Below, piece after piece: positions 1-8,433 of a stretch of DNA of 8,433 nt (the first letter of the stretch is position 1; every line of letters starts with the position of its first letter). A program made the translations under genes and the position numbers. Under the pieces are notes generated by a model. The model did not search any database. It saw only the letters and a program-made list of their open reading frames with translations, and was not told where the DNA came from. The stretch lies in the UHGV virus genome UHGV-1374310, one strand, 5' to 3'. This DNA is from a virus.

Positions 1-2
1 TA

Positions 3-377
3 TCCGACAATAAGAATCCCGAAGAACATCAGAGACATTCCCCAGCCAGTTCCATACCACGAAACCATATCATCGAAAACCAGCCCACCCGTTTCACGAA
101 CTCCGGCAGCTTCCTTAAGAATTGGCTTGAATACCGGAATCAGAAGGGCGATCGCCAGTGGAGCACCCCAGCGAATAAGGCCAGTTTCCATTTTGATCCC
201 GAAAAAGATCCCCGCACCGACAACAAGCAGCCAGACTATCAGGCCAGGCGCAGTTTCCAGTGCTGTTTGCCATTCAACATCGAAAGTTTTCATTAGCCAG
301 GCAACAACTGCCAGACAGAAAGCAAATACGCCTACAACAACCAGTTCAACGCCGCTTGTTTCGTTATTTCTACTCAT
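3..377 (-). CDS. Hypothetical integral membrane protein, C-terminus cut by the window edge (at least 125 aa)
   Basis: Minus-strand ATG at 377-375 preceded by AGGA (6 nt spacing); my translation MSRNNETSGVELVVVGVFAFCLAVVAWLMKTF...GMSLMFFGILIVG has several hydrophobic segments and no stop before position 3. Absent from the ORF track, presumably because it has no in-window stop. Confidence 0.5.
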   Translation of the reverse strand, partial: MSRNNETSGVELVVVGVFAFCLAVVAWLMKTFDVEWQTALETAPGLIVWLLVVGAGIFFGIKMETGLIRWGAPLAIALLIPVFKPILKEAAGVRETGGLVFDDMVSWYGTGWGMSLMFFGILIVG

Positions 378-1870: not shown

Positions 1871-1881
1871 AGGAAAGTAAT

Positions 1882-2199
1882 ATGTCTAATTATGGTCTTT
1901 TCGTTAAGGGTAAAATGTTGGGAGCCCGCCAACGTAATAAAGTTAATGGTCAGGGCTATTATAATGAAATTGGTATTGGCCTTGAAATACCTGATGGTTT
2001 TGGTGGTACAAAGCAGGATCAAATTATTATTCGAGTTTCTCAGGCTCTCGTTAACGCAGGTCTAATGAACCAGGCGAATGCTTTCATTGGGAAATTAGTT
2101 CAAATTCCTGTCTATGTCCGTGCGTGGTCAATGGAGGGTAGGGAAGGTGTAACTTATAATGTTGCTTCCGATGGTGGCATCGCAGAGATCAAAGGTTAA
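1882..2199 (+). CDS. gV: Single-stranded DNA-binding protein (gV-like, divergent, 105 aa)
   Basis: Position directly after gII with SD AGGAA (1871-1875). Only a short stretch ARQRNKVNGQGYYNEIGIGLE resembles the DNA-binding region of M13 pV (TRSGVSRQGKPYSLNEQLCYVDL) and Pf3 SSB; the rest is not recognisably alignable by eye. Confidence 0.65.
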   Translation: MSNYGLFVKGKMLGARQRNKVNGQGYYNEIGIGLEIPDGFGGTKQDQIIIRVSQALVNAGLMNQANAFIGKLVQIPVYVRAWSMEGREGVTYNVASDGGIAEIKG

Positions 2200-2201
2200 A
2201 T

Positions 2202-2288
2202 ATGGACGATGTTATTCAAATTTTGATAGCGTCTGGCATCGTTATTTCTTTTGGCCTCGGCGCGATTACTGCGGGGGTCTTTCGTTAA
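2202..2288 (+). CDS. gVII: Minor coat protein pVII (28 aa)
   Basis: ATG 2 nt after the gV stop with SD AAAGG; translation MDDVIQILIASGIVISFGLGAITAGVFR resembles M13 pVII (MEQVADFDTIYQAMIQISVVLCFALGIIAGGQR) in size, hydrophobicity and C-terminus. Not in the ORF track because it is too short. Confidence 0.7.
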   Translation: MDDVIQILIASGIVISFGLGAITAGVFR

Positions 2289-2383
2289 TGTATATCGTTT
2301 ATTTCTTCGGGGCTTATACCTTTGGTTTTGCCCTTTTCTATGCGGTCGGTTCATTTAAATCATTTTCTGACCGATTAATGTAA
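2288..2383 (+). CDS. gIX: Minor coat protein pIX (31 aa)
   Basis: ATG overlaps the gVII stop (TAATG); translation MYIVYFFGAYTFGFALFYAVGSFKSFSDRLM matches M13 pIX in size and the ...RLM ending. The track's 2159-2383 ORF is an artefactual extension of this frame. Confidence 0.7.
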   Translation: MYIVYFFGAYTFGFALFYAVGSFKSFSDRLM

Positions 2384-2402
2384 CCTTAATGGAGTTATTC
2401 CT

Positions 2403-2645
2403 ATGAAAATTCTGTCTACTGTTAAATATAAAATTGCTCTGGCTTCAACTGCGCTTTTTATTTCTGCAAGTTCTTTTGCGGCTGAAGGCGCTACAGGTGG
2501 TACTGATTATGCAGGTCAGGCAATGGATGCTTTGTTGACTCAGGCAAATGATCTCATTGGTAAAGTATGGCCTGTTGTTGTTGCTGTGGTTGGCGCTGGG
2601 CTTGCCATTCGTATTTTCAAAAAATTCTCTTCAAAAGCGGTTTGA
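2403..2645 (+). CDS. gVIII: Major coat protein pVIII precursor (IKe-like)
   Basis: 26-aa signal peptide ending SFA then AEG; mature C-terminus ...[26 protein letters not shown] is close to the IKe coat C-terminus (...[11 protein letters not shown]) as recalled. SD GGAG at 2391-2394. Confidence 0.95.
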
Positions 2646-2655
2646 ATTTCACTCA

Positions 2656-2678
2656 GGGGCACTCGTTGCCCCTTTATT
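2656..2678 (+). terminator. Rho-independent terminator after gVIII
   Basis: Stem GGGGCA (2656-2661) / TGCCCC (2667-2672) with loop CTCGT, followed by TTTATT; same position as the strong terminator after gVIII in Ff phages. Confidence 0.7.
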
Positions 2679-2691
2679 AAAGCGGGTTACT

Positions 2692-3951
2692 ATGAGAAGG
2701 AAAATATTAATTCTTTCCGCTGTCCTCATTTCTCCTTTTTCACATGCTGAGTCATGGGAAAGCATTACTAAATCCACTTATCAAAGTTCTGCCTATGCTG
2801 AAAGTAAGCAAATAACCAATCAGGATGGCTCTAAGATAACGGTTTACTATATTGATGCTGCTATGCAGGCCTCCGCTTGTCAGGGTGCTAAATCCAGTGC
2901 TCAGAGTGTATTTACTCGGATTAAACCAACTTATGAGGGTATCTGGCCTGATTCTGAATTCCGTCTTGTTTTTACTGGCGATTGTACTTACAGCGATTCA
3001 CCAGGGCAGAAGGATAAATATTGGTCTTTAACGGCTTATATTGTTGGTAATATTCAGCGTTCTGTTCCTGATGAAAAACCTACTGACCCGACACCAGAAG
3101 AAATTTGTGAAGCGAAGCCGCCAGAAGAAGGTGTATTTAATAATGTTGATTCATATGATGGTGGTCGCTATATCTACTATAACGGCTGTGAATATGAGGC
3201 TACTGGTGTCATTGTTTGTCAGGGTGATGGTACTGTTTGCGCTGCAACATGGAAGCCTACAGGTGCTGTAGCTGACCCCTCTGATAAACCCTCAACCCCC
3301 CAAAATGGTGGTGGTGAGTCCGGTGGTGGTGAGTCCGGTGGTGGTGAGTCTGGCGGTGGTGAGTCCGGTGGCGGTAGTTCTGGCGGTAGTTCTGGCGGTA
3401 GTTCTGGCGGTGGCTCTAGTGGTTCCAGTCTTTCTAAAGGTGATATTCAGTCTGCGATCGAAGGTGCTTCACCCAAAATAGCCAGCGATATTCATGATAA
3501 ATTAACGGAGAAAGACACTTCATCAGATGATAAAAAAAATGCCGATGAACAAACCAGGAATAATATAAATCGTCTTGACGATTCCATTAACAATCTTACG
3601 CGGGGGGCTGGCCGTTTTGCTGACCCTTCAGGTGGTGATTCTCGTTATGGAAAGGGCGACTCTGAATTAGATGGCGCTTCTACTTTAGCTGATTCTGAAT
3701 TGGGAATTGAAAAGGATTCTCACGGTGCTTTATGGGAAGCATTTTTAAATAAAGGTGCTATGCTGCCTAATTTACCCAATGGTAACGGCTGCTCTGATTT
3801 TATTATTTTTCCCGGAGAGGTTTATCAGATTGATATTGGTTGCGATAAATTACTGACTATTAAAGATGTTCTTTCATGGGTTTTTTATTGCCTTACGTTC
3901 TGGTATGTCTTTACTTCTTTAACTTCATTGCTTCGCAAAGGGGGTGAGTGA
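2692..3951 (+). CDS. gIII: Minor coat / adsorption protein pIII
   Basis: Signal peptide [19 protein letters not shown]; internal motif [29 protein letters not shown] resembles the M13 N1 (TolA-binding) motif YEGCLWNATGVVVCTGDETQCYGTWVPIG; glycine-rich linker (GGGES x4 then SSGG units); C-terminal anchor [21 protein letters not shown]...[14 protein letters not shown] resembles the M13 pIII C-terminus. The track's start at 2548 is an N-terminal over-extension. Confidence 0.9.
3307..3429 (+). repeat. In-frame tandem repeats inside gIII (15-bp GGTGGTGGTGAGTCC units, then 12-bp GGCGGTAGTTCT units) encoding the Gly/Ser/Glu linker
   Basis: Directly visible near-identical tandem units with wobble-position variation. 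Confidence 0.85.
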
Positions 3952-4292
3952 TGCCTTTATTATTAGGTATTCCTGCATTGTTGCGTTTTCTTATTGGTCT
4001 TGTTCCTTTGTTTATTGGCTATGTGGCGGTTTTTTTAGCTCGACTTGCTACCAGAACAGGATTAATCGCCTTTGCATTGGTCGCATTAATTACAACAACT
4101 GTTACGCTTTTAATGCAGTACCTTGCTGAGGTCATGTATAACGGTTTACCTGCTGATTTCTCCCATTTAATGGCGTCTGTATTGCCTGACCATTTTCAGG
4201 CGTGTGTTAACGTTATTATGGTTACTCGTATCAGTGTTTTTGTTTTCGATTTAAAACAAAAATTTCTTGATTATGCAAACAGGGTGATTTAA
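3951..4292 (+). CDS. gVI: Minor coat protein pVI
   Basis: ATG overlaps the gIII stop (TGATG); [17 protein letters not shown]... vs M13 MPVLLGIPLLLRFLGFL...; C-terminal ...VFVFDLKQKF resembles M13 ...IFIFDVKQKI. Confidence 0.9.
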   Translation: MPLLLGIPALLRFLIGLVPLFIGYVAVFLARLATRTGLIAFALVALITTTVTLLMQYLAEVMYNGLPADFSHLMASVLPDHFQACVNVIMVTRISVFVFDLKQKFLDYANRVI

Positions 4293-5387
4293 ATGGCGGT
4301 TTATGTAGTAACAGGCAAATTAGGCTCAGGCAAGACACTTGTTAGTGTTTCCAGAATACAGGAAAGACTTGCTAAGGGTTGTCCTGTTGCCACTAATCTT
4401 GATCTTAAATTGCATAATATGCCTATGGTTGGGCGTTATGCGAAAAAAACGCGCGTTATTCGCATTCCTGACAAGCCTTCATTAAATGATTTACTTGCTA
4501 TTGGTATTGGGAATACATCTTACGATGAATCCCGTAATGGCCTCCTTGTACTTGATGAATGTGGTACTTGGTTTAATTCCCGCTCATGGGGTGATAAAGA
4601 CAGACAACCTGTTATTGACTGGTTTTTACATGCCAGAAAATTAGGCTGGGATATTATATTTTTGATTCAGGATATTTCGATAATGGATAAGCAAGCTCGT
4701 CTGGCGCTTGCTGAGCATGTTGTTTATTGTCGCCGTTCAGATAAATTAAACATTCCTTTTGTTGGCTCCATTATGAATTTGGTTTCAGGGGCGAGATTTT
4801 CTTTACCAAAGGTACACTTTGGCATTGTCAAATATGGTGATAATGTTAATTCAATCACTGTTGATAAATGGATATATACAGGAAAATCTCTTTATTCTGC
4901 TTACAATACCAAACAAGCGTTCACAGATAATTATCCTCATGGCGCATTTTCGCTTTTGCCACCATTTATCACGCACGGTCAATTTTCTGTTCACAGAGGA
5001 TTTAATTATTATATGCGCCTCACTAAAATTTATTTTCGCAAATCGAACCGTCTTATATTAATGCTTTCTTTTTTGGCGCTGGGGCTTGCGTTTGGTTTCT
5101 GGCTCCAGTCTGGAAAGAATGTTGATGAAATCTCAGCTATTAAATCTGCTTATGCTGAACAGGCGAGGGCGGTAACGCCTGATTCGTCCAGTGACTTACC
5201 CCGACTTTCTATTAATTCTTTTTCACAACTTGGCTTTGACGTTTCCGTTACGTTTGTTGATGCAAAAGGTATGAAATATCAGTATTTTGATTTGATTAAA
5301 GATGGTTATTCCGTTGATATTAAAGATGCCTGTCGTGTTGTTATTAGAAAAGGCCGTTATTTACAGACTGTTACCTGTCAGGAGTAA
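4293..5387 (+). CDS. gI: Assembly ATPase pI (Zot-like), Walker A GKLGSGKT
   Basis: Strong similarity to recalled M13 pI throughout (MAVYVVTGKLGSGKTLVSV..., LLVLDECGTWFN, IDWFLHARKLGWDIIFL, AEHVVYCRR). ATG follows the gVI stop directly. Confidence 0.95.
   Translation: MAVYVVTGKLGSGKTLVSVSRIQERLAKGCPVATNLDLKLHNMPMVGRYAKKTRVIRIPDKPSLNDLLAIGIGNTSYDESRNGLLVLDECGTWFNSRSWGDKDRQPVIDWFLHARKLGWDIIFLIQDISIMDKQARLALAEHVVYCRRSDKLNIPFVGSIMNLVSGARFSLPKVHFGIVKYGDNVNSITVDKWIYTGKSLYSAYNTKQAFTDNYPHGAFSLLPPFITHGQFSVHRGFNYYMRLTKIYFRKSNRLILMLSFLALGLAFGFWLQSGKNVDEISAIKSAYAEQARAVTPDSSSDLPRLSINSFSQLGFDVSVTFVDAKGMKYQYFDLIKDGYSVDIKDACRVVIRKGRYLQTVTCQE
5013..5387 (+). CDS. gXI: pXI, in-frame internal initiation product of gI (predicted)
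   Basis: Internal Met at codon 241 of pI (MRLTKIYFRK...), the same codon position as the M13 pXI start (MKLTKIYLKK...), just before the transmembrane segment. Confidence 0.5.
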   Translation: MRLTKIYFRKSNRLILMLSFLALGLAFGFWLQSGKNVDEISAIKSAYAEQARAVTPDSSSDLPRLSINSFSQLGFDVSVTFVDAKGMKYQYFDLIKDGYSVDIKDACRVVIRKGRYLQTVTCQE

Positions 5388-5394
5388 TATTATT

Positions 5395-6660
5395 ATGCGC
5401 TCTGTTATTGTTGCTTTTTTATTTGCCTGTTCATTCTGCGTTTCTGCTGAAACTGTTAATTTAAATAATTCATCTGTTCGCTCATTTGTTCAGCGGTATT
5501 CTTCAAAAACTGGCAAGCCTGTTATTGTTAATCCTGATATTAAAGGAAACGTAACCGTATTTAATGCTGATGTTAATCCAACAAATATTGATGATTTCTT
5601 TAAGTCTGTTCTGAATGCTAACGGTTTTGTCATGCTTTCTGGCAATCCTGCGGTAGTCTCTTTGCCGTCTAAATTACCTTCACAGATGGTTTCGGATTCC
5701 GATGATTCTGATAACCAGTCTTATGATACTTTTCCTTCTGAGCCATCTTACCAGCCAGTACCTGTGGCGCTTACGGTCAGAAATTTTAAGCTGACAAAAG
5801 TTAGATCGTCCGATGTTCAGCAACTGATTAAAATTTATCTTGATTCTAATGGTGGTGGTAATGTCGTGGATTATCCAGGCAATAACTCGCTGATTGTTTC
5901 TGCGCCTGACGAGCTGCTGCCGGTTCTGTCCGATTTTATCAATTCTGTGGATGTTGCCCGCGATCAGGTTCTCATTCAGTCGCTGATGTTTGAAACCAGC
6001 TTGTCTGATGGCGTTGATTTATCGTTTGCGGCAGGTTCTGCATCCGGTCATAAGGTTGCGGGGGGCTTTAATACTTCTGCACTGGGTAGCGCTCTTTCTA
6101 CGGCGGGCGGTTCTTTTGGTATTTTTGATGGTAACGTGTTGGCGCTGTCTCTGCGTGCTGTCCAGAGTAATTCACGCTCTAAGGTGATTTCAACGCCGCG
6201 TATTCTTACTCAGTCTGGTCAGACTGGTTACATTTCCGTAGGTAAGAATGTGCCGTTTATCACCGGAAAGGTAACGGGCGAATCTGCCGGGGTAAATAAT
6301 CCGTTTCAGACTATCGAGCGTCATGATGTTGGCGTTTCTCTCAAGGTAACGCCTGTTGTCATGGGTAACGGGCAACTAGTTCTGACTATCGACACTCGCG
6401 CTGATTCAATCAGCAATGATGATCAGGCATCCGATATTATTACTAATCAGCGCCAGATTCAGACGACAGTCCAGATTAAGGATGGTCAGACGTTGTTATT
6501 GGGGGGGCTTATCGATTCATCGTTCAGCAATGCCGAGCGTTCAGTTCCAGTTATAAGTAAAATTCCTCTTATAGGCTGGATTTTCAGTAGCAAGGCAGAC
6601 AGCAATGAACAGCGTATTATGTATATTTTGCTTACAGCACATATCATTCGTCCACTTTGA
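5395..6660 (+). CDS. gIV: Outer-membrane secretin pIV precursor
   Basis: Signal peptide MRSVIVAFLFACSFCVSA; extensive similarity to recalled M13 pIV (LDFSFAAGS, GGSFGIF, PRILT.SGQ.G.ISVG.NVPFITG.VTGESA.VNNPFQTIER, TNQR.I.TTV...DGQTLLLGGL, SKIPLIG). SD AGGAG at 5380-5384. The track's start at 5302 is an over-extension overlapping gI. Confidence 0.95.
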   Translation: MRSVIVAFLFACSFCVSAETVNLNNSSVRSFVQRYSSKTGKPVIVNPDIKGNVTVFNADVNPTNIDDFFKSVLNANGFVMLSGNPAVVSLPSKLPSQMVSDSDDSDNQSYDTFPSEPSYQPVPVALTVRNFKLTKVRSSDVQQLIKIYLDSNGGGNVVDYPGNNSLIVSAPDELLPVLSDFINSVDVARDQVLIQSLMFETSLSDGVDLSFAAGSASGHKVAGGFNTSALGSALSTAGGSFGIFDGNVLALSLRAVQSNSRSKVISTPRILTQSGQTGYISVGKNVPFITGKVTGESAGVNNPFQTIERHDVGVSLKVTPVVMGNGQLVLTIDTRADSISNDDQASDIITNQRQIQTTVQIKDGQTLLLGGLIDSSFSNAERSVPVISKIPLIGWIFSSKADSNEQRIMYILLTAHIIRPL

Positions 6661-6703
6661 TGGATAGCGGGTAGGTGCGTGAGCCCTGCTCGCTATCCAT
6701 CAA
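6657..6703 (+). terminator. 13-bp-stem hairpin overlapping the gIV stop: terminator and/or packaging-signal-like element
   Basis: TTGATGGATAGCG (6657-6669) and CGCTATCCATCAA (6691-6703) are exact reverse complements with a 21-nt loop. Ff phages have the packaging-signal hairpin, which also acts as a terminator, in this position after gIV. No T-run follows. Confidence 0.5.
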
Positions 6704-6729
6704 ATGGACATTATTGATTGGGGTAACTA

Positions 6730-7038
6730 ATGGATTCTTATGGGATTTTATCTGCTCTGGCAGAACGAACGATTACAGCGGAAGAAGCAAAAACAATGAC
6801 ACTTGCAGCCAGAAGTTCTTCGGCTCAGGTAAATGAAGCATCACTTGCTCTGTTACTGATTGATAATACTCTGGATGCGATCAAAGCAGCTGCCAGTGAA
6901 GGGAAAGGATACACTTTACTTCCTTCTTATGAGATTTCTGTAAAAGCCATTGATTTAGCAGAAGAATTTTTAAGGAAACAATGCGGCTATGTTATTGATA
7001 ACCAGAATGGCGTAAGGACGGTCTATTGGTTTATATGA
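6730..7038 (+). CDS. Hypothetical protein (102 aa), accessory/cargo gene with no recognised family
   Basis: ORF track protein MDSYGILSALAERTITAEEAKTMTLAARSS...; starts about 27 nt after the hairpin; weak SD. Confidence 0.45.
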   Translation: MDSYGILSALAERTITAEEAKTMTLAARSSSAQVNEASLALLLIDNTLDAIKAAASEGKGYTLLPSYEISVKAIDLAEEFLRKQCGYVIDNQNGVRTVYWFI

Positions 7039-7155
7039 TAACCCCGGACAATGACAAAACTTGCTTTTGTTAGTGTCAGGGGTTGGCCAAGCCGAACAAT
7101 TCTGTTTTTTTAGCGTTATTGCTGATTCGGCGCGGCAGCATTACGAGGAGATAAA

Positions 7156-7389
7156 ATGCAATTTTTCACATCCAGCGATACTGTAATGTTATGTGCGAAG
7201 ACCTGCGATCGCTGTGGTCGCCATGCGAAGACGGTGGTAGATGACATTGAGTTCAATGAGTTTCTGTCTGTTAATCACTTAGCTGGATACGGTTCAATTT
7301 TTGGTGACAGTAATCGCTTAAAACTGGATTTATGCCAACATTGCCTGAAAGACGTCCTGGGCCAGTGGATTACGGTCTGTGACCAATGA
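7156..7389 (+). CDS. Hypothetical small zinc-ribbon protein (77 aa; CxxC...CxxC), accessory/cargo gene
   Basis: Strong SD GAGGAG 6 nt before the ATG; Cys pairs CDRC (near the N-terminus) and CQHC (near the C-terminus). Confidence 0.6.
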   Translation: MQFFTSSDTVMLCAKTCDRCGRHAKTVVDDIEFNEFLSVNHLAGYGSIFGDSNRLKLDLCQHCLKDVLGQWITVCDQ

Positions 7390-7427
7390 CGGCACCGGTA
7401 ACGCCAGTTCCCGCCATCCTTACCATT

Positions 7428-7460
7428 GGTGCGCATAATGTAGGACTCGTTATGTTGAAA
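7428..7460 (+). other. dif-like XerC/XerD recombination site with an extended 11-bp central region (candidate attP half-site 1)
   Basis: GGTGCGCATAA-TGTAGGACTCG-TTATGTTGAAA versus recalled E. coli dif GGTGCGCATAA-TGTATA-TTATGTTAAAT: XerC arm 11/11 plus the next 4 nt identical, XerD arm 9/11. Confidence 0.6.
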
Positions 7461-7494
7461 AGGCCGCTGCGAAAATCGAATCCCGCAGCGGCCT
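7461..7494. terminator. 11-bp-stem hairpin between the two dif-like sites; likely bidirectional terminator for the convergent gene blocks and apex of the putative attP fold
   Basis: AGGCCGCTGCG (7461-7471) and CGCAGCGGCCT (7484-7494) are exact reverse complements with a 12-nt loop; on the minus-strand transcript the stem is followed by UUUUCAACAUAAC. Lies between convergent genes ending at 7389 and 7537. Confidence 0.6.
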
Positions 7495-7521
7495 CTTTAG
7501 CATAACGTCATTGTGCGAACC
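7495..7521 (-). other. Second, inverted dif-like site (candidate attP half-site 2)
   Basis: Reverse complement of 7495-7521 reads GGTTCGCACAA-TGACG-TTATGCTAAAG: XerC-like arm 9/11 and XerD-like arm 9/11 to recalled dif, 5-nt centre; opposite orientation to site 1. Confidence 0.5.
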
Positions 7522-7536
7522 AAAATCTTTTAGATT

Positions 7537-7728
7537 TTATTTTCCGCAAGCAGGGCAGACGTTTGCATCACCAAATTGCATTGTAGTGCTTTTATTCACA
7601 CTAAAACTTTCGAATCCTTCACGTAAGGATTTTTTTTCACCATTAAAAAGATATGTTGTAAATTCTTTTTTCTCCGCATCAGTCAATTGAAGCCAGAGAG
7701 CTTTGACTTGATCTACTTTATAACTCAT
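7537..7728 (-). CDS. Hypothetical small protein (about 63 aa) ending in CPACGK; second gene of a minus-strand accessory pair
   Basis: Start chosen at the internal ATG (MSYKVDQVK...) because AAGGAG sits 6 nt upstream and overlaps the stop of the preceding gene; the track's longer form from 7770 would overlap that gene by 31 nt. Confidence 0.5.
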   Translation of the reverse strand: MSYKVDQVKALWLQLTDAEKKEFTTYLFNGEKKSLREGFESFSVNKSTTMQFGDANVCPACGK

Positions 7729-7739
7729 TTGTTTCTCCT

Positions 7740-8315
7740 TTATTTCACGAGATTGCCACAATTTGTGCAACCTTTCCGCTTGTTAAATTTAGTCGGTATT
7801 TTATTGCAACGTACGCATTCTTTATTTTTCTTTACCAGAATGTCGAACATAATCCGTTTCTTATCATTATTGCTAACATATTTTTCATCTTCCTTGGCAT
7901 TGAAGTCATCTTTTGATTTTATCACTGAAAACAAATGGTTAGCGGGTTGCTGGTTGCCTGTCTTTGATTTAAACATGCTCGACAGTTCGCCATACAAATC
8001 AGTTAGGAGTTTATTGAAAGAGTATGATTCCAGATATCGAGATAAATTTTCATCAGTCTTCATGACCAGCGTGTATAAATTAGAAAGCAAGACTATCACT
8101 GATAATATCCCTGTGCCCCAAACTAAAAAATCAAAATATTTGGAGCTGTGATCAACCGATGCGTATCCTCCAACTAGGACAGGGAGGGCAAATGATAGAT
8201 ATTGGTTTATTTTTAAAAGTCGTTCGCTTTTTTTGATTTTAGTTTTTAAGTAGTCAGCTGTTCCCTCTGCGTAAAATTTCCTGAGGTCCATTTCTTCATT
8301 CGGTTGCATACTCAT
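7740..8315 (-). CDS. Hypothetical 2-TM membrane protein with C-terminal C4 zinc ribbon (about 191 aa); candidate toxin, exclusion or defence effector
   Basis: ORF track 7740-8321 (GTG); I prefer the ATG at 8315 (AGGTG upstream). Two hydrophobic helices (LSFALPVLVGGYASV, LVWGTGILSVIVLLSNLYTLV), then a charged region ending CVRC...CTNC. Visibly AT-rich. The opposite-strand ORF 7687-8151 looks like a shadow. Confidence 0.6.
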   Translation of the reverse strand: MSMQPNEEMDLRKFYAEGTADYLKTKIKKSERLLKINQYLSFALPVLVGGYASVDHSSKYFDFLVWGTGILSVIVLLSNLYTLVMKTDENLSRYLESYSFNKLLTDLYGELSSMFKSKTGNQQPANHLFSVIKSKDDFNAKEDEKYVSNNDKKRIMFDILVKKNKECVRCNKIPTKFNKRKGCTNCGNLVK

Positions 8316-8433
8316 CTTCACCTTTCACAATATCAAACTAGCGCGGGCTGAAATTATAAAAAACCTGTAAATTCAAGTGATTGACATTCACCAATAATAT
8401 GAATTCCTTCTGTGCCACCAATAAAGCAGACCG

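What the first reader, a model, noticed from the sequence alone, without database searches (positions are those of the whole stretch)
6730..7389. Two uncharacterised cargo genes inserted between gIV and the att site, the position occupied by ctxAB in CTXphi
In Ff and IKe the packaging signal and origin follow gIV directly. Here a hairpin at the gIV stop is followed by a 102-aa protein and a 77-aa zinc-ribbon protein with a strong SD, and only then the dif-like region. Cargo in this slot of integrating inoviruses is often a toxin, a regulator or a host-modulating factor. Neither protein resembles anything I recognise.
Basis: partly seen in the sequence, partly recalled or inferred. Interest (0 to 1): 0.6.

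Follow-up and report, generated by a model that had tools for sequence, protein, structure and literature searches.

The report
Two accessory genes of UPφ phage
The two small genes are real and sit where described, but they are very probably the published, still uncharacterised "h1" and "h2" genes of the UPφ filamentous phages; they are two separate cassettes, not a toxin pair, and the second belongs to a large unnamed zinc-ribbon family of phages and plasmids.

Summary
ORF-A (6730-7038, 102 aa) and ORF-B (7156-7389, 77 aa, two CxxC pairs, GAGGAG Shine-Dalgarno) lie between gIV and a folded dif-like attP. Both evolve under purifying selection (dN/dS 0.05-0.14).

The window is one complete 8433-nt unit of a UPφ-type, IKe-related, dif-integrating inovirus. 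Shapiro & Putonti (2020) described two unknown genes in this slot, named them h1 and h2, and made the same ctxAB comparison. The finding itself is therefore already known.

New here:
- The hairpin at the gIV stop is the homologue of IKe's packaging signal.
- The two genes are separable. A Salmonella variant keeps h1 without h2. In four other inovirus backbones an h2 homologue follows gIV with no h1-like gene; it is the last + strand gene before attP in the three where the site is on the contig.
- h2 is not an orphan. Its family has at least 1236 clusters at 50% identity in phages and plasmids, with no Pfam model. Longer members carry antitoxin toxin-binding tails.
- Both proteins are acidic and lack a signal peptide or transmembrane segment, so a secreted toxin is unsupported.

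Function remains unproven. My best guess is that h2 is a cytoplasmic protein-binding zinc ribbon, an antitoxin-like or counter-defence module. h1 is lineage-specific and unknown.

The parts
5392..6660 (+). gIV secretin (context; upstream neighbour)
   Evidence: Pfam Secretin 5.7e-43, plus GspD N0 and Secretin_N. It is 93% identical to the Salmonella UPφ variant.
6650..6709 (+). Long hairpin overlapping the gIV stop: homologue of the IKe morphogenetic (packaging) signal and probable terminator
   Evidence: z = -8.0. The apical 22 nt are 91% identical to IKe 6141-6196, which is annotated 'morphogenetic signal'. One compensatory A:T to C:G change in the Salmonella variant keeps the stem.
6730..7038 (+). 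ORF-A, presumably 'h1' of UPφ viruses: 102-aa acidic cytoplasmic protein restricted to this phage lineage
   Evidence: phrog_4115 at 2e-68. Only UPφ-type relatives were found, in two alleles at 100% and about 60% identity. dN/dS is 0.14, and 0.08 for residues 36-102. The AF2 model has pLDDT 69 and an α3-β-α-β-β topology. No fold match is significant. pI 4.7, no TM segment or signal peptide.
7040..7136 (+). Two conserved hairpins in the h1-h2 spacer (7040-7084 and 7086-7136); candidate minus-strand-origin or attenuator elements
   Evidence: ssDNA fold z = -4.63. The first stem is kept in the Salmonella variant despite several substitutions on both arms (read by eye). The function is inferred from position only.
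7145..7150 (+). Shine-Dalgarno GAGGAG of ORF-B
   Evidence: Sequence read; 5 nt before the ATG at 7156.
7156..7389 (+). ORF-B, presumably 'h2': 77-aa acidic zinc-ribbon protein, a stand-alone member of a large unnamed mobile-element family
   Evidence: phrog_5435 at 4.5e-46. The family has 2307 clusters at 90% identity and 1236 at 50%. Invariant residues are C20, E35, G44-Y-G-S47, F49-G-D51, C60 and C63. dN/dS is 0.05-0.14. There is no Pfam or PDB sequence match. Paralogues carry Xre_MbcA_ParS_C, TacA1 and DUF4926 tails.
7426..7523 (+). CTXφ-type folded attP: XerC-arm 7428-7440, inverted partner 7509-7521, and an internal G+C hairpin (arms 7448-7471 / 7484-7507) that also looks like a bidirectional terminator
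   Evidence: ssDNA fold z = -5.45; inverted repeat I1. In integrated prophages a perfect dif replaces it, starting 39 nt after the h2 stop.
7537..8433 (-). Variable reverse-strand accessory module (context): 77-aa ORF, 193-aa TIGR04402 'mobilome CxxCx(11)CxxC' protein, and the start of a 140-aa membrane protein that continues across the window ends
   Evidence: TIGR04402 at 1.1e-41. The module is absent or replaced in other UPφ copies. The circularised window restores the 140-aa gene.

Best explanation
The region holds two real but independent accessory genes. They sit in the former intergenic region of an IKe-like, dif-integrating filamentous phage (a UPφ virus), between the packaging-signal hairpin and the folded attP. 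They are presumably the published h1 and h2.

h2 (ORF-B) is a stand-alone copy of a widespread, acidic, four-cysteine zinc-ribbon domain found in phages and plasmids. In longer relatives the same domain is tethered to antitoxin-type toxin-binding tails. I infer that h2 acts in the lysogen's cytoplasm by binding a protein partner. That would make it an antitoxin-like, counter-defence or regulatory adaptor rather than a toxin.

h1 (ORF-A) is a lineage-restricted, acidic α/β protein with a conserved C-terminal half and a fast-changing N-terminal third. Its partner is unknown.

Shown: gene reality, identity of the phage, independence of the two genes, family size, domain fusions, and the nature of the flanking hairpins.

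Inferred: the mode of action. I put protein-binding neutraliser or adaptor at about 0.35, nucleic-acid-binding regulator at about 0.2, and other at the remainder.
For: Identity of the phage:
- gI is 66% identical to IKe gI.
- g3p carries GGGES repeats.
- There are two ORFs after gIV, a dif-type site, then three reverse ORFs. This is the layout described for UPφ901 (PMC7307601).
- E. coli C10 carries a tandem array with a period of 8490 nt, and the circularised window restores a gene across its ends.

Real genes: dN/dS is 0.05-0.14.

Independence of the two genes:
- The Salmonella UPφ variant has gI and gIV 93% identical. Its h1 is only 60% identical and it has no h2.
- h2 homologues of 57-82% identity follow gIV with no h1-like gene in backbones whose gIV is 26-29% identical to this one or not detectably related (L012/L011, L074, L075, L013). 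A Xer site follows h2 where it is on the contig: 39 nt away in L075, about 320 nt in L012/L011 and L074.
- h2 homologues also occur as lone genes on plasmids and in tailed or jumbo phage contigs, with no recurrent neighbour.

Family and fusions:
- 1236 clusters at 50% identity.
- Of 32 long members, 7 carry PF09722 Xre/MbcA/ParS toxin-binding domains (best E 3e-18, above the gathering score), 1 carries TacA1 (1.5e-14) and 2 carry DUF4926.
- The 102-aa homologue in the same slot of another inovirus has a tail weakly like the CcdB-binding end of CcdA. NCBI names some members of its cluster 'CcdA family antitoxin'.

Cytoplasmic and acidic: pI is 4.7 and 5.4, with no hydrophobic segment. The family's median domain charge is -3, and 87% of members have pI below 7.
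Against: - No experiment or transcript data bears on either gene.
- The fused 'antitoxin-like' relatives that could be examined had no recognisable toxin next to them. Their status as working antitoxins is therefore unproven.
- One fusion (TacA1) brings its own ribbon-helix-helix region, so the zinc ribbon is not simply a replacement DNA-binding domain.
- The CcdA-tail similarity is below Pfam's threshold (16.9 bits against 22.4; BLASTP 7 of 22 identities).
Confidence: 0.55

Rival explanations
1. h2 is a nucleic-acid-binding factor that acts on the phage's own structured DNA. The target would be the neighbouring folded attP or the origin hairpins, making h2 an accessory factor for Xer integration or for replication. 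Alternatively it is a small transcriptional regulator.
For: - An h2-family gene follows gIV in five different backbones. It is the last + strand gene before the Xer site in the four where that site is on the contig.
- In antitoxin-like paralogues the domain sits where canonical Xre/ParS antitoxins carry their HTH (the canonical architecture is from general knowledge of the Pfam PF09722 family).
Against: - The domain is consistently acidic, with conserved D18, E32, E35, D51 and D58. That is unusual for a DNA binder.
- Most family members are in tailed phages and plasmids that have no dif-type attP.
- The Salmonella UPφ variant integrates at dif without h2.
- There is no match to DUF3653/XafT or any other Pfam DNA-binding family.
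Confidence: 0.2
2. h1 and h2 form a toxin-antitoxin (addiction) pair. It would stabilise the prophage or its episomal replicative form, with h1 as toxin and h2 as a zinc-ribbon antitoxin, in the MqsR/MqsA gene order.
For: - Two small adjacent co-oriented genes of 102 and 77 aa.
- The h2 family is linked to antitoxin modules.
- The authors of the UPφ paper suspected the two interact.
- The replicative form is known to exist as a plasmid-like episome (a 7938-bp Salmonella 'plasmid').
Against: - h1 occurs without h2 in Salmonella prophages. A lone toxin should not persist.
- h2 homologues almost always occur without h1.
- The genes are 117 nt apart, with two conserved hairpins between them, rather than overlapping or abutting.
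- h1 matches no toxin family or fold.
- h2 lacks the toxin-binding tails of its longer relatives.
- In this phage group, toxin-antitoxin genes (Doc) appear in the other, reverse-strand variable module.
Confidence: 0.1
3. The pair is virulence cargo in the manner of ctxAB. It would be a secreted toxin or host-cell-modulating factor that benefits uropathogenic hosts.
For: - The slot is equivalent to ctxAB (PMC7307601, PMC4266046).
- UPφ is enriched in urinary isolates, according to the paper.
Against: - Neither protein has a signal peptide or hydrophobic segment; the maximum Kyte-Doolittle 19-residue mean is 1.21 and 0.66.
- There is no similarity to any toxin family or solved toxin structure.
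- h2 relatives are common in environmental phage contigs with no link to pathogenesis.
Confidence: 0.04

Closest known systems
h1 and h2 of UPφ viruses (UPφ901; Shapiro & Putonti 2020, Virus Evolution, PMC7307601)
   Same: - IKe-like morphogenesis genes.
- Replication genes shared with other dif-integrating inoviruses.
- GGGES repeats in g3p.
- Two unknown ORFs in the region that is intergenic in IKe, followed by the dif-like site and three reverse ORFs.
- The same hosts.
The paper makes the same comparison with the ctxAB slot.
   Different: Nothing structural differs; this appears to be that element.

The paper states that the genes have no homologues outside UPφ prophages, that all UPφ viruses share both, and that the two probably interact. 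Here h2 has thousands of relatives, a Salmonella variant lacks h2, and the two genes are separable.

Assigning h1 to ORF-A and h2 to ORF-B is by gene order only.
YPO2280a/YPO2281 of YpfΦ and their CUS-1 homologues (Derbise & Carniel 2014, PMC4266046)
   Same: Two ORFs of unknown function lie next to attR of a dif-integrating enterobacterial inovirus, in the ctxAB-equivalent slot. A variable reverse-strand module sits at the other end.
   Different: The backbone differs. The UPφ paper reports under 30% overall identity to YpfΦ, with over 85% only in genes II and V. Homology of h1 and h2 to the YPO ORFs was not tested here, because no Y. pestis sequence was available in the collections I could still search.
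ctxAB of CTXφ
   Same: Position: after the morphogenesis and assembly genes, next to the Xer-dependent attachment site. The attP is a CTXφ-type folded ssDNA site.
   Different: ctxA and ctxB encode secreted AB5 toxin subunits with signal peptides and their own regulated promoter (general knowledge). h1 and h2 have no signal peptides, no toxin similarity and no detectable promoter.
Type II antitoxins with a C-terminal Xre/MbcA/ParS toxin-binding domain (PF09722), TacA, and CcdA
   Same: Longer members of the h2 family carry exactly these toxin-binding modules C-terminal to the zinc ribbon. A weak CcdA-like tail is also seen.
   Different: h2 itself has no tail. No cognate toxin gene is adjacent, either here or in the fused relatives examined. 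Canonical members use HTH or RHH N-domains, not a zinc ribbon.
IKe/Ff intergenic region (morphogenetic signal, minus- and plus-strand origins)
   Same: The hairpin overlapping the gIV stop is homologous in sequence and position to IKe's morphogenetic signal. Further hairpins follow it.
   Different: IKe's 730-nt intergenic region is non-coding. Here the stretch after the packaging signal carries h1, two hairpins, h2 and an attP. No sequence similarity to IKe's origin hairpins was detected, which fits the different gene II type.

Membership tests
UPφ viruses (Lineavirus-related, dif-integrating inoviruses) | Morphogenesis and assembly genes about 65-70% identical in protein to IKe/I2-2 | tested here: met
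   gI is 65.9% identical to IKe gI over the full length. A gIV segment is 79% identical in DNA.
UPφ viruses (Lineavirus-related, dif-integrating inoviruses) | Two unknown ORFs (h1, h2) between gIV and the dif-like site, with reverse-strand ORFs beyond it | tested here: met
   ORFs at 6730-7038 and 7156-7389, attP at 7426-7523, and three reverse CDSs in the RefSeq annotation of the tandem prophage. No UPφ901 reference sequence was compared directly. E. coli ECONIH2, which the paper names as a host, is among the hits at 99.4% identity.
UPφ viruses (Lineavirus-related, dif-integrating inoviruses) | Glycine-rich GGGES repeats of variable number in g3p | tested here: met
   [20 protein letters not shown] is present in the gIII product. 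The copy in E. coli C10 has a gIII 51 nt longer.
Type II toxin-antitoxin pair (h1 + h2) | Obligate co-occurrence of the two genes | tested here: not met
   h1 occurs without h2 in L060-L062. h2 homologues occur without h1 in L011-L013, L074, L075, on plasmids and in tailed phages.
Type II toxin-antitoxin pair (h1 + h2) | Tight operon (overlapping or closely abutting genes) | tested here: not met
   The spacer is 117 nt and contains two conserved hairpins.
Type II toxin-antitoxin pair (h1 + h2) | One partner related to a known toxin family or fold | tested here: not met
Type II toxin-antitoxin pair (h1 + h2) | Toxicity of one product relieved by the other | not testable with these tools
   Needs expression experiments.
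Zinc ribbon / treble-clef type zinc-binding domain (h2) | Four metal ligands in two CxxC knuckles, conserved across the family | tested here: met
   C20, C60 and C63 are invariant and C17 is kept in 97% of 39 diverse members. One close homologue (P0018) has Ser at the first position.
Zinc ribbon / treble-clef type zinc-binding domain (h2) | Knuckles brought together around a β-hairpin, with the second knuckle leading into a helix | tested here: inconclusive
   The AF2 model shows strands at 36-42 and 54-59 and a helix at 61-71, but mean pLDDT is only 55.
PARP-type zinc finger (zf-PARP) | CCHC ligand set with Cx2Cx28-30Hx2C spacing, and a basic DNA-gripping surface (general knowledge of the family) | tested here: not met
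Antitoxins with the Xre/MbcA/ParS C-terminal domain (PF09722), TacA, or CcdA | Presence of the toxin-binding domain in the protein itself | tested here: not met
   h2 ends right after the zinc-ribbon helix and matches none of these models. Only longer paralogues carry them.
ctxAB-like secreted toxin cargo | Sec signal peptides and homology to a toxin family | tested here: not met
   No hydrophobic N-terminal segment. No toxin hits.
Ff/IKe packaging (morphogenetic) signal (hairpin 6650-6709) | Long imperfect hairpin at the end of gIV, in the + strand, homologous to a characterised signal | tested here: met
   It overlaps the gIV stop. The apical 22 nt are 91% identical to the IKe feature annotated 'morphogenetic signal'. 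One compensatory pair change is seen in Salmonella. Packaging activity itself cannot be tested here.
CTXφ-type folded ssDNA attP | Two inverted Xer-binding-like sites that pair in the + strand, with the integrated prophage flanked by a regenerated dif | tested here: met
   Arms at 7428-7440 and 7509-7521, fold z = -5.45. A perfect dif is present at attR in L001-L007, L012, L060 and L075. Dependence on XerC/XerD was not tested.
Xer activation factor XafT (DUF3653) | DUF3653 HTH domain | tested here: not met
   No Pfam hit of that kind for h1 or h2 at E up to 1.

The most novel reading that the evidence does not exclude
The h2 zinc ribbon defines a new, very widespread class of counter-toxin or counter-defence modules in mobile elements. 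In the stand-alone form (h2) it would bind and blunt a host or plasmid effector directly. In the tailed forms it would present CcdA-, ParS/MbcA- or TacA-type tails as 'orphan antitoxins' that disarm resident toxin-antitoxin or abortive-infection systems.

For dif-integrating inoviruses this would explain why an h2-type gene follows gIV, close to attP, in five unrelated backbones. These phages probably enter through conjugative-plasmid pili, as IKe and I2-2 do.
Probability: 0.15. Interest if true: 0.7.

Novelty: already known. Interest (0 to 1): 0.33.

Why it matters
UPφ prophages occur in roughly 1% of complete E. coli genomes: at least 49 of 5426 carry this region. According to the 2020 paper they are enriched in urinary isolates. 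[quoted passage not shown]

The value added here is modest but practical. The genes should be studied separately rather than as a pair. A secreted-toxin hypothesis is a poor bet. h2 can be approached through a family of more than a thousand sequence clusters whose longer members point to toxin-antitoxin or defence biology.

If the family proves to be a general counter-defence or antitoxin-scaffold domain, it would be a new Pfam-scale family of interest well beyond filamentous phages.

Tried and rejected
1. I first filed the window as CUS-1/YpfΦ on the strength of the review. I rejected this after gI proved 66% identical to IKe and the layout matched UPφ901.
2. The apparent membership of 'G2P replication protein' sequences in the h1 cluster is a clustering artefact. 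It is caused by deletion chimeras, gII'::h1 and gII'::h2.
3. The plasmid matches are not to h1 or h2, nor to the reverse module. They are to a 72-nt piece of the attP region.
4. A search for a conserved neighbour of h2 homologues in 50 viral loci found none outside the close inoviruses.
5. A search for toxin genes next to the antitoxin-tailed relatives found none. The contigs were mostly short.
6. Profile searches of h1 and of the h2 family against PDB sequences gave nothing significant.
7. The Ff plus-origin nick sequence is absent. No similarity to IKe's origin hairpins was found.
8. I could not link the L012-type phage to CUS-1 through E. coli genomes.
10. Rfam gave only sub-threshold hairpin noise.
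Full report
**What is there**

The window carries a full inovirus gene set:
- A reverse-strand 60-aa gene at 466-648 (phrog_2503, unknown function), in the slot where related phages carry their repressor.
- gII (776-1870), gV, gVIII, gIII, gVI, gI/Zot (4293-5387) and the gIV secretin (5392-6660).

- A long hairpin lies across the gIV stop.
- ORF-A is at 6730-7038 (102 aa).
- ORF-B is at 7156-7389 (77 aa). It has two CxxC pairs and a GAGGAG five bases before its ATG.
- A dif-like region follows: a perfect XerC arm at 7428-7440 and an inverted partner at 7509-7521.

The hairpin spans 6650-6709 and is far more stable than shuffled sequence (z = -8.0). The dif-like region folds as single-stranded DNA into a forked hairpin, 7426-7523 (z = -5.45). 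This is the CTXφ type of attachment site.

In integrated copies in E. coli, Salmonella and metagenomic prophages, a perfect 28-nt dif starts 39 nt after the ORF-B stop.

**What the window is**

E. coli strain C10 carries this element as a tandem array with a period of 8490 nt. Joining the window's ends restores an intact 140-aa reverse-strand gene. The window is therefore one complete 8433-nt phage unit.

I first took it for CUS-1/YpfΦ. That was wrong, for three reasons:
- gI is 66% identical to IKe gI.
- g3p has the GGGES repeats.
- The layout is the one described for UPφ901 and the 'UPφ viruses' by Shapiro & Putonti 2020 (PMC7307601): two unknown ORFs in IKe's intergenic region, then dif, then three reverse ORFs.

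E. coli ECONIH2, a host named in that paper, is among my 99.4% hits. The paper names the two genes h1 and h2 and notes that CTXφ carries ctxAB in this region. I found no later functional work in the held library.

**Are they genes?**

ORF length alone proves nothing here, since spurious antisense ORFs of 80-97 aa abound. Both are nonetheless under purifying selection:
- h1 against a 60%-identical Salmonella allele gives dN/dS 0.14, and 0.08 for residues 36-102.
- h2 against homologues of 71-82% identity gives 0.05-0.14.

Both match PHROG families end to end and are annotated as CDSs in RefSeq. Nothing in Rfam reaches threshold.

**The flanking hairpins are intergenic-region elements; the ORFs are not**

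IKe's record annotates a 'morphogenetic signal' stem-loop at 6141-6196, overlapping the gIV stop. The apex of the window's hairpin is 91% identical to it over 22 nt and sits in the same place. In the Salmonella variant one A:T pair of the stem has become C:G by changes on both arms. So the packaging signal still follows gIV directly, and h1 and h2 lie after it.

The 117-nt h1-h2 spacer folds into two hairpins (z = -4.63). The first is kept in Salmonella despite several substitutions. By position they could be minus-strand-origin or attenuator elements, but this is only inference.

No σ70-like promoter was found after the packaging signal or in the spacer. The simplest reading is read-through transcription from gIV. 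That is untested.

**The two genes are separable**

A Salmonella UPφ variant (L060-L062) has gI and gIV 93% identical to the window. Its h1 is only 60% identical, and it has no h2. In place of h2 there is a roughly 330-nt non-matching stretch before a perfect dif. The synonymous divergence of h1 is 1.78, against about 0.37 for gI and gIV. The allele was therefore swapped in by recombination.

Conversely, h2 homologues follow gIV, with no h1-like gene, in four other backbones:

| Locus | h2 identity | Backbone relatedness to the window |
|---|---|---|
| L074 | 82% | gIV 28% identical, gI undetectable |
| L075 | 77% | gIV 27% identical, gI undetectable |
| L012/L011 | 64% | gIV 29% identical, gI undetectable |
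| L013 | 57% | gIV and gI both undetectable |

A Xer site follows h2 in L075 (39 nt), L012/L011 and L074 (about 320 nt). The L013 contig ends at the h2 stop.

h1 was found only in UPφ-type phages. This pattern argues against an obligate pair, and hence against a toxin-antitoxin couple.

**h2 is not an orphan**

A profile of h2 and its close relatives finds 1236 clusters at 50% identity. An alignment-seeded search finds 2307 clusters at 90% identity. Members are mostly 75-90 aa.

The family signature is CDxCG … E-x-QEF … GGYGSxFGDG … CDLCQHCLK. C20, E35, G44-Y-G-S47, F49-G-D51, C60 and C63 are invariant. The family has no Pfam model and no relative of known structure by sequence.

Members occur in tailed and jumbo phage contigs among runs of small early-type genes. 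They also occur on small and large plasmids. No recurrent neighbour was found.

The informative clue comes from longer members. Of 32 examined:
- 7 carry a C-terminal Xre/MbcA/ParS toxin-binding domain (PF09722, best E 3e-18).
- 1 carries TacA1 (1.5e-14).
- 2 carry DUF4926.

All of these score above the gathering thresholds.

The 102-aa homologue in the equivalent slot of the L012-type inovirus has a tail weakly resembling the CcdB-binding end of CcdA (Pfam E 0.009, below threshold; BLASTP 7 of 22 identities). NCBI labels some members of its cluster 'CcdA family antitoxin'. JGI gives the same label to two more distant family members.

None of the tailed relatives I could inspect had a recognisable toxin next door, although most contigs were short. 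They look like orphan antitoxin-type proteins.

**What h2 probably does**

Two readings compete.

*Protein binder.* Several observations favour this reading:
- The domain is consistently acidic. Median net charge is -3, 87% of members have pI below 7, and the conserved residues D18, E32, E35, D51 and D58 are all acidic.
- It is scattered among early genes of unrelated phages and plasmids.
- One fusion partner (TacA1) brings its own DNA-binding region.

I therefore favour a cytoplasmic protein-binding role, as an antitoxin-like, counter-defence or regulatory adaptor (about 0.35). A nucleic-acid-binding role comes second (about 0.2). A dedicated Xer or integration role is unlikely, because the Salmonella variant integrates at dif without h2 and most family members are in elements without dif sites.

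**What h1 probably does**

Very little can be said. It is acidic (pI 4.7) and has no signal peptide or membrane segment. The moderate-confidence model (pLDDT 69) shows three helices followed by β-α-β-β.

The C-terminal two-thirds are strongly conserved, and GYVIDNQNGVRT is invariant. The first 35 residues diverge freely.

**Toxin reading**

Neither protein has a secretion signal, any toxin similarity, or a defence-system match. The ctxAB analogy is positional only.

**Verdict**

The interpretation as slot-specific cargo is partly right. The useful additions are the separability of the two genes, the packaging-signal assignment, the large h2 family with its antitoxin-type fusions, and the case against a secreted toxin. 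Function remains open and needs the experiments listed.

Noticed in passing
window 7740-8321 (-), with 7537-7770 (-) and the gene spanning 8391-8433|1-377 (-): The reverse-strand module encodes a TIGR04402 'mobilome CxxCx(11)CxxC' protein (E 1.1e-41, with a weak SLATT-domain hit), a 77-aa ORF and a 140-aa protein that looks hydrophobic and may be membrane-embedded. The module is absent or replaced in other UPφ copies. Two E. coli strains carry a Doc (death-on-curing) toxin gene there instead.
   Followed up: partly
window 7451-7522: A 72-nt piece of the attP region, comprising the G+C hairpin and the inverted Xer-like arm, matches about 480 plasmid records. They are mostly conjugative plasmids of E. 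coli, Klebsiella and Salmonella, at about 93% identity, in unannotated DNA. It may be a plasmid Xer or multimer-resolution site, or a trace of exchange between phage and plasmid.
   Followed up: partly
P0005, P0024 (protein clusters); L006 7419: Recurrent deletion derivatives fuse the 5' end of gII in frame to h1 (P0005, Citrobacter) or to the last 21 codons of h2 (P0024, a cluster of 70 sequences). L006 has lost window 6350-6839, which covers the gIV 3' end, the packaging signal and the h1 5' end. These look like mini-prophages or decay products that keep the attP-proximal end.
   Followed up: partly
L060 10320-10690; L012 4100-4418; L074 8351-8678: A conserved stretch of about 320 nt lies between the last gene and attP in three different inovirus backbones. 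It is absent from the window and from L075. It may be coding or structural.
   Followed up: no
L002 (JARKOR010000214.1): A 25-kb contig filed under a 'Candidatus Nanosynbacter' metagenome-assembled genome carries this phage at about 99.6% identity, next to a perfect E. coli dif. This is almost certainly a mis-binned enterobacterial contig.
   Followed up: no
window 3300-3420 (gIII): The glycine-rich GGGES/GGS repeat tract of g3p varies in length between copies. It is 51 nt longer in E. coli C10, and gIII is the most divergent core gene (52% identity in the Salmonella variant, against 93% for gI and gIV).
   Followed up: no
L001 (E. coli C10) and NZ_CP092647.1 (EC5502): The prophage is present as a tandem array at dif in C10. 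EC5502 shows 13-17 separate matching places, which suggests unusually high copy number or dispersal.
   Followed up: no
L066 (Proteus terrae pZF2-7kb) 1880-4940: On a 7-kb Proteus plasmid an h2 homologue (55% identity) is divergently adjacent to a large SIR2-family gene and a RelE/ParE toxin-antitoxin pair. This is a possible defence-related context.
   Followed up: no
NZ_CP140410.1 (Salmonella, 7938 bp): A 7.9-kb circular 'plasmid' record carries identical h1 and h2 genes and 135 nt of the attP region at 97.8%. It is probably the episomal replicative form of a UPφ phage.
   Followed up: no
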